Source: Magallana gigas
Taxonomy: Eukaryota
Direction: 5' to 3'
Length of the DNA stretch: 64,000 bases
Assembly: GCF_963853765.1 (NCBI RefSeq)
Contig: NC_088856.1
Span: 32,488,001 to 32,552,000, forward strand
In this document: piece by piece, positions 21,001 through 64,000 of the stretch
Numbering within the stretch: position 1 is the first letter of the stretch
How the letters are laid out: every line of letters starts with the position of its first letter
Made by a program: the position numbers

Positions 21001-24000
21001 CATTATGTGTACTTGCTTGACATTGTTCATTTTTTACCAATATGAAATAACGAATAAATATATTTGTAGAAAATTCTCATAATAGATCTATATCCTACAA
21101 GTGTTAATTACATTGTTGTGGTATCTACATACCTGTAAAAGTAATTAATTGGGGTGGGGGTTTGAAGGTGGAAAATTCAAACTTATCTAATATAAAGTTT
21201 CAATTTCCAATACCAAGGTATGCCAAGATCATATTGCCATACCGGAGACTTTAAGATTGAGTCTTCAAAGCCTAAATTATGTTAAATCAATGTACCTGTG
21301 CTATCTACATTACTGGTAGACACAATCTCGTGGGATCTATCATCATCTTTCAAATAGTCCACAGAAATACAAACACTATTCAGTGATACTTTAATCACAA
21401 ATAGGTCACTATATGTACCACACAGGTCATTCAGACTGGTTCATTTAGGACCAAAGCAAATTGCACTTAAAATGGAGTCTCAAACTATTGGCCCTATCTA
21501 ATCCATTTGATTCCAGAAGTTGATGCTTGCCAAAATTACTGTACCTACAACCAGTCTTTAATAGTCTGATCTTTTTGTGAGTAATTTTTTCACAATCCTG
21601 TTAAAAATACTTCATAGATAAACAACAAAGGGAAATATGGAAAAATAATCATCTTTATGGAAATATTTGTGCAAAATACAGTGTATCAAAATATAAATCA
21701 CAACAGGGATGCATAATTGGTGTGCAGAAACCTCGTCACTTTTTTTTGTAGTCCACCCACTTGAAGAAGTCACACCTGGCTTCTGGATTCGTACTGTGAC
21801 CCTCCCCCCGGGCACACACAAAGAACTGCTTCCCTTTATTGGGCCCCGGCTTTTTCACTGTCCTTAACACACAGGGTTCCTGGTGTCCCTTACACAGAGG
21901 AGGGGGAGGGGGACCTTGGAGGAGGTTTTTCCAGGCACTTGCTGTGTTACTTTTCACAGTGATGGTACTCTCAACTTTTACACTCATCTCAGAGCTGTGA
22001 TTCTCTCCCTTTGTTTCAGAGGACACTTCCTCCATTTTAATATCAACAACTTCCTTTTTTGTACTTGTCTTTAGGAAAAATCCTTTTAGACTACCCTGCC
22101 TGGAATCACTTGAATCAGATTTCTTTTTCTTTGCTGCATTTCCAATTTTGTCTCCATTACTTGGTCTCTTTAAAGTCACTTTTTCTGTCTTATCATTTTT
22201 TGTATTTTTGATATGGTTTTGATCTGCTGTGTCCTGACTGGTTTTTATTTCAATACTACTTTCAATAGTCTTCTCTCGCTTCATAAAAAAGGAAGAAAGT
22301 TTAATTTGTTTTCCACAGAACTCTGGCATATGTTTCGTGCACAGAGGAGGACATTTTTCGGCCGGAATAAACTCTGCAATATACTCTGCTTTGACTGGAC
22401 AGTGGTCTGAGCCCTCTACATCTGCCAATATCTCGCAGTCCTTGAGATCACTTTGAGCCAATTCAACGTTTGTAAAGATATAATCCAGACGTCGCCCATA
22501 GTTGGTTTCTCTAGCCGAGGTCAAAGTGCACCAGTTGGTATAGGCCCCCGTCTGGTCTGGATAGAAGTACCTGAATGAGTCCACAAACAGTCCCCCCCTC
22601 ACAGAGCTTGTGGTGCCAGCAAAATCCTCCTTATTCTCCACAGCAGCAATGCTGGGGTCCCGGTCCGTGTCCCACACAAACTGGTTCACCCACACCCGGC
22701 TCGGAGTCGTAACCGTCCCCTACAAAGTACGTATCCCAGTTACTAAGTTATACCCAGTATTAACCACAAAGTGTACAAAATTTTGATGATTGTAAAAGAT
22801 TTTATTTACAATAAGTTTTAATAAGAATCCAAATTTGTGTTTGTGTTTATTCAGATTAATCTTATTTTCAAAAGTTGTCTAAAACACCATTGACTTACTA
22901 CTTCATCTTCTTCACTGCGATCAATGCTCTTGTGCTTGACATTCATGTCTCCAAGTACAATAACATTACTGAAAACAGAATACAAAAACATTTCATAAAT
23001 ATACAGTGTATATAAAAACATTAAAGATATAGTAGTACAATGTAAATGCTGAGCATTATGAGGCTTAAGACAGGATAGTTTTTAACGGTTTAGCCAAATG
23101 CTGAAATAACTAAATTTATGTTTTATAGAATTTGCGAAACATGATTAAAGAAATGCCCCTTGAAGTCTTCTTGTACCACACATGCTGTGGTAGGCGTTGT
23201 CTGTTGTTCTCTTACCAGCCACTCTGTAGAAGAGCCTCGGCCCTGGTCTGGAGTAGAGCGAAAAAGCGCAGCTTGTAGAGCAGCCTGTCCTCTCTATCTG
23301 GGTCAACGCGCGGACAGTACACATTGATGATGGCTAACTCAGCTTCCACTCCATCATGTTTCCTAAATAATCAAATAATTAGAAATCCTCCTGCTGATGC
23401 CAAATATACTTGTTATGAAATGTTGCATTTAAAATCTTATCCGAAGAACAAATGGCATTTTTAATATGAAAAAAAATATTAATTGTTTACACATATGTTT
23501 TATAAATCTGGAAATAACATCAATCAAAAGTACAGGAACTTCAGTACTGTAGCCAAAACTTTCATGTGAACTATGATGACCTTTTTTCACCTGATTTTGT
23601 GTTTTGTAATGACTGCCCTCCCCTCTGCATCGAGAGCCTCCAATTCATCACTGGAGAACTCGCTCACATCTCCGTAGTGACCCACTTTTCCTTCAAGTTT
23701 TGGGTTAAGTTCTTTATACAGACCCTCTTCTGCCTCTACAGGGGTTGCTGAAGCTTTGCAAAATGTTGCAACGCCTACAACGATAGCAGAGGAACTGAAT
23801 CATATGTTAAATTGTCTGTACATGTATGAACAAACACATCATAGATGCAATAAAAAATTGGATATTATAGATCATTCTAGCTTTTCAAAAGCAATTTTAT
23901 TCTATTCCAGAAAATCCTGATTAGCAGTCACATGAAATGAATGAAATAGTAATTAAAATGTTATTATAAAAAAAATTGACTGCAGATTGTGTATGTTTTA

Positions 24001-63000: not shown

Positions 63001-64000
63001 CCAGGTTTGTGTGTGGCCGGGGGGGGGGGGGGGGGATGTGTGTGGATGATGGACCATACAAATTTTGACAGTTCACAAATACACTTCTCTATTATACTTG
63101 TTTCCGATCATATCGCGGGTTCTATGGTATCGCGGTATTTCTGTTTACGTATAGTAGCAAGCGCTGAAATTGACATTTGATATTGGGATATTTTTAGACA
63201 TAGTAAACAGAGACACGCTGAACATCACTGAGGTATATTATAGAGGAAACTCACAATAACATAAGTTTCTGGAAATATTTCTGTATTGATAGATTTTTTG
63301 ACAAAATGATTTAACTACCACGATATCATAGGACTGGCTCATACTAATTGAAATTGTTGATTGAAATATTTGTTTGGAGTAATGTTTCTTAATTGTTTCA
63401 AGATTCATTTCTTGCTAGCGTTGCTTTAAACAGCGAGAAAATAGCAATTTATTCATGCAAGACTTCAGCCTTTCCCATTACAACTCTTGATTGCTCGGTG
63501 AGTGACAATGCTAGGTATTTGTATGTACATGTATTCTACCAGATTAATATGTGTGGTTTTATGCATACATTTTTCTTTTTCTGAAATTTCATTTGTAAAG
63601 CTAGTGTTATATATACTACATTCATATTGGAAAGAATCACTTGAAAATTCTAGATTCTAAATTTTAGTTGTCAAATAATGTCATAAATTTTGTTTGAAAA
63701 TGCACAATTTAAGTTGACTAAAAATTTTGTATTTCAAATATTAGAGAAGTTATCAGTCATAATGTATTTATTTATTTTAGCCTGGAAGATTGTGTGTAGA
63801 CCTTACATCTACATCTAGGTATCTTGTGGTTGGAGGTTCAGATGGTATCATTAATGCTTGGGACCTAAAGTCAAGAACCATTAAAAAGTCCTACAAGGTA
63901 TGCCATCCTTAATCATTTTCATATTTATAGAGTCACTTCATTTAATTAAACAGTATCAGTATCTGTTAATACATTGCTCATTAATATGATACTTTTTTTC

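What the first reader, a model, noticed from the sequence alone, without database searches (positions are those of the whole stretch)
21736..63897. Gene neighbourhood mirrors the human Xq28/12q23/1q32/3q21 paralogon
Seen: APEX2, a LEM gene, RENBP, C1orf74, MBD4/MeCP2 and NEDD1 lie within 42 kb. Established, from memory: RENBP, MECP2 and EMD cluster at Xq28; NEDD1 and TMPO are neighbours at 12q23.1; C1orf74 and LEMD1 are at 1q32; MBD4 is at 3q21; APEX2 is at Xp11. These regions are paralogous through vertebrate genome duplications (e.g. ATP2B and PLXNA families). Inference: this window preserves a pre-duplication bilaterian block. It would make the single LEM gene the co-orthologue of EMD/TMPO/LEMD1 and show MECP2 retaining the ancestral RENBP linkage.
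Basis: partly seen in the sequence, partly recalled or inferred. Interest (0 to 1): 0.65.

Follow-up and report, generated by a model that had tools for sequence, protein, structure and literature searches.

The report
Oyster gene cluster echoing human Xq28
Six conserved genes sit within 42 kb of an oyster genome, and their human counterparts all lie in one known set of duplicated chromosome regions, which is mostly expected from conserved chromosome-scale linkage, though a three-gene core may be an older tight neighbourhood.

Summary
APEX2, a small emerin-like LEM gene, RENBP, C1orf74, MBD4 and the first three exons of NEDD1 all lie at 21,739-63,897. Each was identified exon by exon. The window comes from an ostreid oyster, not from human.

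These are a four-module C2H2-like gene, a Mab-21 family gene and an unsupported small ORF. None has a clear human orthologue.

The human paralogon is real and already published, as chromosomes 1, 3, 7+12 and X (Lagman 2013). RENBP, MECP2 and EMD lie within about 410 kb, or 11 genes, at Xq28.

Published work reports oyster ancestral linkage groups as intact, with gene order scrambled between phyla. Six of six genes mapping to one paralogon is therefore largely the expected background.

A rough null model gives p of about 0.002-0.04 for the Xq28 triple. That is suggestive, but it is post hoc. Conservation outside oysters could not be tested with these tools.

The "MBD4/MeCP2" label is well supported. 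The gene is a true MBD4, yet the first half of its MBD matches MeCP2 best. Verdict: partly supported, modest interest.

The parts
21739..24777 (-). APEX2 orthologue. About six coding exons: 24661-24777 with the start codon, then 24062-24211, 23590-23799, 23215-23370, 22854-23081 and 21739-22719. These are open-frame limits, not exact splice sites.
   Evidence: Searches give Exo_endo_phos at both ends and a GRF zinc finger. PDB 6wcd_A scores 4.4e-42 and 5u6z_A 8.8e-31. The middle exons were assigned by eye.
24778..25601 (.). 824-bp head-to-head spacer between the APEX2 and LEM start codons (a putative shared promoter region).
   Evidence: Promoter function is inferred, not tested.
25602..27699 (+). 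Emerin-like LEM gene encoding 164 aa in 5 exons: 25602-25683, 26479-26570 approx., about 26920-26955, about 27135-27222, and 27502-27699. [quoted passage not shown]
   Evidence: One search gives a Kyte-Doolittle mean of 2.75 over 19 aa, with 19 residues after it.
33411..39928 (+). It has four tandem modules with invariant C-x2-C...H-x4-H...HN...G-x-G-x2-IP...C-x2-C...H, followed by two Myb/SANT-looking exons. It may begin upstream, near 31.15 kb.
   Evidence: Searches gave no Pfam match, one search lists the frames, (Atlas) gave 'C2H2-type domain-containing protein' at 0.97, and one search is alignment A1. The Myb/SANT resemblance is by eye only.
40422..42631 (-). RENBP (N-acylglucosamine 2-epimerase) orthologue, about 9 exons.
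   Evidence: Exons other than 40794-41168 were assigned by eye or from weak Pfam scores.
42632..44613 (.). 1,982-bp head-to-head spacer between the RENBP and C1orf74 start codons.
44614..45339 (+). C1orf74 (UPF0739 / DUF4504) orthologue, a single coding exon of 241 aa.
47719..48900 (-). It has no clear one-to-one human orthologue.
   Evidence: One search gives Mab-21_C at 5.5e-11, one search gives MiD51 at 9.5e-8, cGLR1 at 1e-4 and cGAS at about 3e-3, and one search lists Atlas clusters for Mab-21, ITPRIP, TMEM102 and MIEF.
53741..58552 (-). MBD4 orthologue. A probable acidic 5' exon lies at 58052-58552. The MBD is split between 57811-57954 and 56184-57551. The glycosylase domain lies in 54707-about 54880, 54303-54512, 53882-54142 and 53741-53836.
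   Evidence: That the 58052-58552 exon belongs to this gene is inferred only from strand, position and codon score.
58553..62779 (.). About 4.2-kb head-to-head spacer between MBD4 and NEDD1. It holds two inverted copies of a palindromic repeat built from 8/22-nt GCGAAG-type units (61076-61336 and 62000-62240).
62780..63897 (+). NEDD1 orthologue, exons 1-3 only (aa 1-113 of about 660): 62780-62905, about 63402-63500 and 63781-63897. The rest lies beyond the window.

Best explanation
This is a gene-dense stretch of an oyster chromosome, with about nine genes in 42 kb and three head-to-head pairs.

Six old, mostly single-copy nuclear or housekeeping genes have stayed linked here because they all descend from one ancestral chromosome. 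In vertebrates that chromosome went through the two rounds of genome duplication and became the known paralogon on human chromosomes 1, 3, 7+12 and X. Differential loss then left RENBP and APEX2 on X, NEDD1 on 12, C1orf74 on 1, MBD4 on 3 and MECP2 on X. LEM copies remained on X (EMD), 12 (TMPO) and 1 (LEMD1).

On top of that background, the LEM-RENBP-MBD4/MeCP2 core is probably a remnant of closer linkage that predates the duplications. It spans 33 kb and 6-7 genes in the oyster, and 410 kb and 11 genes at human Xq28.

Shown here: the gene identities, their layout in the window, the existence of the paralogon and the Xq28 distances.

Inferred: the common ancestral chromosome, the loss pattern and the age of the tight core.
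For: - Gene identities.
- Paralogon on human chromosomes 1, 3, 7+12 and X, with ATP2B, PLXNA, L1CAM and CAMK1 quartets. Blocks include X 147-157 Mb, X 44-54 Mb and chr1 196-209 Mb (Lagman 2013).
- RENBP, MECP2 and EMD lie within 11 consecutive protein-coding genes, among L1CAM, AVPR2, OPN1LW and FLNA. LEMD1 is at 1q32.1 with the same LEM plus membrane-anchor layout.
- Oysters keep all 29 ancestral linkage groups intact on single chromosomes (preprint 10.1101/2024.07.29.605683).
- MBD4 and MeCP2 form one clade with vertebrate duplication. The oyster MBD N-half matches MeCP2 (2.9e-10) better than MBD4 (2e-6) or MBD2/3 (1.6e-3). The glycosylase exons match MBD4 only.
- The oyster LEM domain matches LAP2 (7.7e-10) and emerin (1e-3), 7 of 7 hits.
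- Rough null model: at least 3 of 4 X-linked genes inside 11 gene slots has p = 0.042, 0.014, 0.006 and 0.002 for 150, 270, 400 and 800 slots.
- Within oysters, the NEDD1 and C1orf74 hits report the same 'longest contig' length in 3 of 3 species: 353,815, 44,901,083 and 88,744,346 bp.
Against: - No genome outside oysters could be examined, so the age of the tight cluster is untested.
- Gene order within linkage groups is reported as largely scrambled between phyla, and conserved runs as rare (Simakov 2022; Simakov 2020). The prior for any given block is therefore low.
- The null model uses guessed slot numbers and was set up after the pattern had been seen. The chr1 pair carries no signal (p 0.32-0.71).
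- Gene order differs between the two species: LEM-RENBP-MBD4 in the oyster, RENBP-MECP2-EMD in human.
- Two or three genes in the interval have no counterpart in the paralogon. The nearest named relatives of the Mab-21 gene (MiD51/MIEF, ITPRIP, TMEM102) lie elsewhere in the human genome, by recall.
- In Saccostrea cucullata the emerin-like hit reports a different contig length (337,807) from NEDD1 and C1orf74 (353,815).
- The positions of NEDD1, TMPO, C1orf74, MBD4 and APEX2 are recalled, not checked.
Confidence: 0.55

Rival explanations
1. Linkage-group background only. The genes share an ancestral chromosome, but their closeness in the oyster arose within molluscs or oysters. The closeness of RENBP, MECP2 and EMD at Xq28 is then an unrelated coincidence in a very gene-dense human region.
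For: - Gene order is scrambled between phyla and conserved runs are rare.
- Oyster linkage groups are intact, so neighbours are expected to share a paralogon.
- The pattern was picked after inspection, and the null p values are only 0.002-0.04 before any correction.
- Gene order differs between oyster and human.
Against: Three separate LEM paralogues each lie near a different member of the oyster cluster: EMD near RENBP and MECP2, TMPO near NEDD1 and LEMD1 near C1orf74 (both recalled). Simple chance predicts that less often. One search gives about 0.04-0.11 for the chr12 pair, on top of the Xq28 figure.
Confidence: 0.35
2. A selected cluster. The genes are held together by shared regulation, through bidirectional promoters or a common domain for proliferation-linked nuclear genes. 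APEX2 and MBD4 act in base-excision repair, emerin at the nuclear envelope and NEDD1 in spindle assembly.
For: - There are three head-to-head pairs with short spacers of 824 bp, 1,982 bp and about 4.2 kb.
- The segment is compact, with about nine genes in 42 kb.
Against: - No expression or chromatin data were available.
- None of the three oyster head-to-head pairs is a neighbouring pair in human, by recall. The table shows NAA10 and HCFC1 next to RENBP, and FLNA next to EMD.
- Unrelated lineage-specific genes sit inside the cluster.
Confidence: 0.1

Closest known systems
The vertebrate visual-opsin / oxytocin-vasopressin-receptor / L-type calcium-channel paralogon (Lagman et al. 2013, PMC3826523)
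   Same: It covers the same human regions: chr1 about 196-209 Mb, chr3, chr7+12, and X 44-54 and 147-157 Mb. RENBP, MECP2 and EMD lie among its members L1CAM, AVPR2, OPN1LW and FLNA.
   Different: In the main text I searched, MECP2, MBD4 and TMPO each occur 0 times. RENBP, EMD, LEMD1, NEDD1, C1orf74 and APEX2 were not searched for there. It does not address invertebrate gene neighbourhoods.
Ancestral linkage groups / conserved macrosynteny (Simakov et al. 2020 and 2022; preprint 10.1101/2024.07.29.605683)
   Same: Oyster neighbours whose vertebrate orthologues fall in one paralogon are what intact linkage groups predict.
   Different: That framework describes linkage without regard to order. 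The claim here concerns a 42-kb neighbourhood, which the framework says is rarely kept between phyla. I could not establish which linkage group this is.
Conserved bilaterian microsyntenic blocks (Irimia et al. 2012; Simakov et al. 2013; both recalled, not read here)
   Same: A handful of unrelated genes kept adjacent across phyla, often as head-to-head pairs or with regulatory elements of one gene lying inside another.
   Different: Membership requires adjacency in several phyla, which was not tested. I do not know whether any pair here is in those lists, because they are in supplements and were not seen.
Human Xq28 L1CAM-EMD segment (the MECP2 duplication region)
   Same: It holds RENBP, MECP2 and EMD within about 410 kb. 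Their oyster counterparts lie within 33 kb.
   Different: The order and the intervening genes differ. Human has HCFC1, TMEM187, IRAK1, the opsins, TEX28, TKTL1 and FLNA. The oyster has a C2H2-like gene, C1orf74 and a Mab-21 gene. The oyster gene is MBD4-type, with a glycosylase domain.

Membership tests
Vertebrate 1/3/7+12/X paralogon (as the pre-duplication counterpart) | Human (co-)orthologues of the linked genes lie inside the published paralogous blocks. | tested here: inconclusive
   Met for RENBP, MECP2 and EMD (X:153.2-153.6 Mb, inside the X 147-157 Mb block). Met at band level for LEMD1 (1q32.1). APEX2, NEDD1, TMPO, C1orf74 and MBD4 rest on recall only, and one search found no paper.
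Conserved bilaterian microsyntenic block | The same gene families are adjacent or near-adjacent in at least two distant phyla beyond the two being compared. | not testable with these tools
   No eukaryotic genome collection was on hand. Only within oysters do the NEDD1 and C1orf74 hits share a contig length, in 3 of 3 species.
Conserved bilaterian microsyntenic block | Proximity exceeds what shared linkage-group membership gives. | tested here: inconclusive
   A toy permutation with assumed slot counts gives p 0.002-0.04 for the Xq28 triple, 0.04-0.11 for the chr12 pair and 0.32-0.71 for the chr1 pair. It is post hoc, and some of the gene counts are recalled.
APEX2 (AP endonuclease 2) | An exonuclease-endonuclease-phosphatase nuclease domain followed by a C-terminal GRF zinc finger. 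| tested here: met
Emerin / LAP2-beta / LEMD1 type LEM proteins | An N-terminal LEM domain, a single C-terminal membrane anchor and no MSC or ankyrin domain. | tested here: met
   LEM scores 5.1e-18 and is the only Pfam domain in P0006. The hydrophobic 19-mer has a mean of 2.75 and lies 19 residues from the end. The membrane anchor was not checked with a dedicated predictor.
RENBP / N-acylglucosamine 2-epimerase | The GlcNAc_2-epim fold, closest to the animal enzyme rather than to cellobiose 2-epimerases. | tested here: met
   1fp3 scores 1.5e-38, against 1e-6 or weaker for cellobiose 2-epimerases. Pfam gives 1e-20.
C1orf74 / UPF0739 | DUF4504 over the whole protein. | tested here: met
   (2e-25, profile positions 14-255 of 255). 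Named orthologues.
MBD4 | A methyl-CpG-binding domain together with a C-terminal HhH-GPD-type glycosylase domain. | tested here: met
   The stretch around the catalytic loop is nearly identical to the human chain in the printed alignment.
MeCP2 | An MBD followed by a transcription-repression / NCoR-interaction region, with no glycosylase domain. | tested here: not met
   The gene has a full glycosylase domain, so it is not a MeCP2. Its MBD N-half is nevertheless closest to MeCP2. The repression region was not tested.
NEDD1 | An N-terminal WD40 propeller together with a C-terminal gamma-tubulin-complex-binding region. | tested here: inconclusive
   Only aa 1-113 lie in the window. On their own they look like generic WD40. 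The identical database protein P0001 aligns end to end with NEDD1 at 2.6e-111.

The most novel reading that the evidence does not exclude
The LEM-RENBP-MBD4/MeCP2 trio, perhaps with NEDD1, C1orf74 and APEX2, is a true bilaterian microsyntenic block that survived from before the two vertebrate genome duplications.

That would make EMD, TMPO and LEMD1 the duplication-derived copies of one emerin-like gene. It would also show positionally that MECP2 is the copy of an ancestral MBD4-type repair gene that stayed beside RENBP, kept a conservative MBD and lost its glycosylase domain.
Probability: 0.35. Interest if true: 0.55.

Novelty: new member of a known kind. Interest (0 to 1): 0.35.

Why it matters
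If the tight core proves older than the vertebrate duplications, it gives positional evidence for two gene-family histories that currently rest on short-domain trees.

The first is that MeCP2, the Rett-syndrome gene, arose from an MBD4-type DNA-repair gene.

The second is that emerin, LAP2 and LEMD1 are sister copies of one ancestral nuclear-envelope gene.

It would also add one more case to the small set of neighbourhoods that resisted scrambling for over half a billion years.

If it does not hold, the window is an ordinary example of conserved chromosome-scale linkage in a slowly rearranging mollusc genome.

Tried and rejected
- **LEM exon 1 as a search query.** It was too short (35 aa, minimum 40). 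I used the last exon instead.
- **NEDD1 exons alone.** Pfam and PDB gave only generic WD40 signals. The question was settled through named oyster orthologues and P0001.
- **Other ORFs.** Pfam on 10 further ORFs of at least 96 aa in the gaps of the claimed interval gave nothing, apart from one sub-threshold chemoreceptor match at 0.0059. The acidic exons and the repeat ORFs also gave nothing. In one search, 7 of 10 ORFs gave nothing, including both in-interval ones (45767-46180 and 31152-31430). The three hits were upstream: EGF at 2.1e-5 and two sub-threshold CBM_14.
- **RNA genes.** Rfam found 0 families and there were 0 tRNAs.
- **Atlas.** For the Mab-21 and C2H2-like genes it gave family-level leads only.
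- **Paper searches with no hits.** emerin + LEMD1 + LAP2 + evolution + paralog; RENBP + MECP2 + synteny; NEDD1 + TMPO + 12q23.
- **Paper searches with nothing relevant.** Xq28 + paralogon gave 2 papers, judged from the listing only. MBD4 + MeCP2 + synteny + vertebrate gave 2 papers, likewise judged from the listing only.
- **Papers not held or unhelpful.** PMC4333761 (Brachner and Foisner) is not held. PMC13144012 gives no chromosomal positions.
- **Cyclic-nucleotide synthase reading of the Mab-21 gene.** I considered it, but the nucleotidyltransferase half matches only weakly (2.4e-4, below the cut-off). I did not pursue it.
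Full report
**What the window is**

The window has no N and a G+C content of 29-44%. Database proteins that are 96-100% identical to its exons, together with named relatives at 55-78% identity from Saccostrea, Ostrea edulis and Crassostrea virginica, place it in an ostreid oyster. I did not determine the species. It is not human sequence.

Where a full-length comparison was needed I used database proteins (P0001 and P0006) that match the window's exons.

**Checking the observation**

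Stop-to-stop frames were ranked with a codon-usage score trained on four clear exons. Candidate exons then went to Pfam, to PDB sequences and to the large protein set.

- **APEX2 (- strand, 21739-24777).**
  - The last exon holds the end of the nuclease domain and a GRF zinc finger.
  - It matches 6wcd_A at 4.4e-42 and 5u6z_A at 8.8e-31, against about 2e-9 for APEX1 chains (49 hits). I recall those two entries as frog APE2 structures; the table itself gives only the enzyme name.
  - Exon 1 matches the start of the nuclease profile.
- **LEM gene (+ strand, 25602-27699).**
  - It starts 824 bp from the APEX2 start codon, head to head.
  - It encodes 164 aa in five exons.
  - It has an N-terminal LEM domain (5.1e-18 in the matching protein P0006) and a strongly hydrophobic 19-mer lying 19 residues from the C-terminus.
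  - Two of five hits are named 'emerin homolog 1-like'.
- **RENBP (- strand, 40422-42631).** Its best-scoring exon gives GlcNAc_2-epim at 1e-20 and 1fp3 at 1.5e-38.
- **C1orf74 (+ strand, 44614-45339).** It has one coding exon, matches DUF4504 at 2e-25 and has named orthologues. It lies head to head with RENBP, 1,982 bp away.
- **MBD4 (- strand, 53741-58552).** The MBD is split by an intron. A long low-complexity linker follows, then four short exons for the glycosylase domain. Those exons hit MBD4 structures and nothing else: 15 of 15 at 7.7e-17 and 15 of 15 at 9.5e-21.
- **NEDD1 (+ strand, from 62780).**
  - On their own these exons look like any WD40 protein.
  - Identity comes from 3 named 'NEDD1-like' hits among 5.
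  - It also comes from P0001, which is identical over exons 1 and 3 and aligns end to end with NEDD1 structures at 2.6e-111. The next natural non-NEDD1 hit scores about 1e-21.

- Between the LEM gene and RENBP lies a long + strand gene (33.4-39.9 kb, possibly starting near 31.15 kb). It has four tandem modules with 15 invariant positions, mostly Cys, His and Gly (alignment A1). It has no Pfam family and only an automatic 'C2H2-type domain-containing protein' lead.
- Between C1orf74 and MBD4 lies a single-exon Mab-21 family gene. Its nearest solved relatives are MiD51 (9.5e-8), a cGAS-like receptor (1e-4) and cGAS (about 3e-3).
- A 138-aa ORF with a signal-peptide look (45767-46180, -) has no support.
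- Ten further ORFs of at least 96 aa in the gaps gave nothing.

The interval therefore holds eight or nine genes. Six of them have clear human counterparts.

Upstream of the finding, at 4-20 kb, lie EGF and chitin-binding-domain exons and two long low-complexity ORFs with no informative match.

**The human side**

Lagman et al. 2013 describe four paralogous regions on human chromosomes 1, 3, 7+12 and X, with ATP2B, PLXNA, L1CAM and CAMK1 as full quartets. Their blocks include X 147-157 Mb, X 44-54 Mb and chr1 196-209 Mb (passages read).

A published table of the Xq28 segment gives RENBP at X:153,200,722, MECP2 at X:153,287,264-153,363,188 and EMD at X:153,607,597. That is 11 protein-coding genes from RENBP to EMD inclusive, lying among L1CAM, AVPR2, OPN1LW and FLNA. 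LEMD1 is at 1q32.1 and is a 181-aa protein with a LEM domain and a membrane anchor.

The positions of NEDD1 and TMPO (12q23.1, about 1.6 Mb apart), C1orf74 (1q32.2), MBD4 (3q21.3, close to RHO) and APEX2 (Xp11.21) are my own recollection.

**The two gene-family claims**

*MBD4 and MeCP2.* Two papers place vertebrate MBD4 and MeCP2 in one clade (PMC6673714). One adds that many invertebrate lineages have a member of this group and that it was duplicated in vertebrates (PMC8330077); I read passages only. The window adds a detail:

- The gene is a full MBD4 by architecture.
- The N-terminal half of its MBD matches MeCP2 (11 rows, best 2.9e-10) better than vertebrate MBD4 (4 rows, 2e-6 to 3.8e-5) or MBD2/3 (from 1.6e-3) (27 hits).
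- The C-terminal half is roughly tied: the chicken MeCP2-type protein at 8.1e-6, MBD4 at 1.8e-5 and MeCP2 at 9e-5.

This fits an ancestor with an MBD and a glycosylase domain, from which MeCP2 kept the MBD and lost the enzyme.

*LEM.* The oyster LEM domain matches LAP2 (7.7e-10) and emerin (1e-3), 7 of 7 hits. The protein has the same overall layout as emerin and LEMD1. A review-type analysis notes that emerin and LAP2-beta share a C-terminal region (PMC5630835). This makes co-orthology reasonable. However, a 40-residue domain cannot settle it, and whether this is the genome's only such gene was not testable.

*Intron positions.* Intron 1 of the LEM gene falls after 82 coding bases (phase 1). 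The MBD intron is phase 2, right after the DVYIY motif. I recall that human EMD and MECP2 have introns at the same places, but I did not check this.

**Is it more than background?**

- A preprint comparing 18 oyster genomes reports many fusions but all 29 ancestral linkage groups intact on single chromosomes.
- Simakov et al. 2022 state that order within linkage groups is largely scrambled between phyla, that conserved runs are rare, and that 29-43% of orthologues change linkage group. Simakov 2020 makes the same point about order.

Six of six genes pointing to one paralogon is therefore what macrosynteny predicts. By itself it says nothing about a tight ancestral block.

The extra signal is local. 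Three oyster genes within 33 kb have counterparts within 11 genes at Xq28. By recall, the other two LEM copies also sit near NEDD1 and, more loosely, near C1orf74.

In a toy model, four X-linked genes were dropped at random on 150, 270, 400 or 800 slots. At least three fell inside 11 slots with p = 0.042, 0.014, 0.006 and 0.002. The chr12 pair gave 0.04-0.11 and the chr1 pair 0.32-0.71. The slot numbers are assumptions and the pattern was chosen after looking, so this is suggestive only.

Within oysters there is limited direct support. The Saccostrea cucullata emerin-like hit reports a different contig.

**Verdict**

The paralogon is known. The two gene-family inferences are reasonable, and the MBD one is reinforced here.

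The central inference, a pre-duplication bilaterian block, remains open because no non-oyster invertebrate genome could be examined. I rate conserved linkage-group descent with a probably older LEM-RENBP-MBD4/MeCP2 core at 0.55, pure background at 0.35 and a selected regulatory cluster at 0.10.

It is a new instance of a known kind of feature and of modest interest.

Noticed in passing
window 33411-39928 (+), possibly from about 31150: A long gene with four tandem modules of about 110 aa, each on its own large exon. Fifteen positions are invariant (C-x2-C, H-x4-H, HN, G-x-G-x2-IP, C-x2-C, H). Acid-rich spacers separate the modules, and two Myb/SANT-looking exons lie at 39115-39396 and 39563-39928. 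There is no Pfam family. The best Atlas lead is an unnamed 'C2H2-type domain-containing protein' cluster (0.97).
   Followed up: partly
window 47722-48900 (-): A single-exon Mab-21 family gene. The C-terminal domain matches clearly (5.5e-11) but the nucleotidyltransferase half only weakly (2.4e-4, below the cut-off). It is closest to MiD51 in the PDB, then to a cGAS-like receptor. I did not examine whether it keeps catalytic residues.
   Followed up: partly
window 61076-61336 and 62000-62240: Two inverted copies (92-94% complementary arms) of a palindromic element built from 8/22-nt GCGAAG-type units, in the MBD4-NEDD1 spacer. It looks like a MITE or hairpin-forming satellite, and its long ORFs in all frames are artefacts of the repeat.
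   Followed up: partly
window 27640-27699 (end of the LEM gene): The membrane anchor and the short tail after it are almost unchanged between this oyster, Crassostrea virginica and Saccostrea cucullata, while the middle of the protein is only about 60-75% identical. This suggests that the lumenal tail has a partner.
   Followed up: no
window 4100-7550 (+), 12903-14738 (-) and 18984-20168 (+): Upstream of the finding lie EGF and chitin-binding (CBM_14) exons, a 611-aa frame with one membrane-spanning stretch and a long low-complexity tail, and a 394-aa Pro/Arg/Asp-rich frame. None has an informative family match.
   Followed up: partly
window 45767-46180 (-): A 138-aa ORF that starts with a signal-peptide-like stretch, lying between C1orf74 and the Mab-21 gene. 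It has no Pfam match and no other support.
   Followed up: partly
window 21739-63897: Gene density is about one gene per 5 kb, with three head-to-head pairs. By my recollection of oyster gene density, which I did not check, this is several times the genome average.
   Followed up: no
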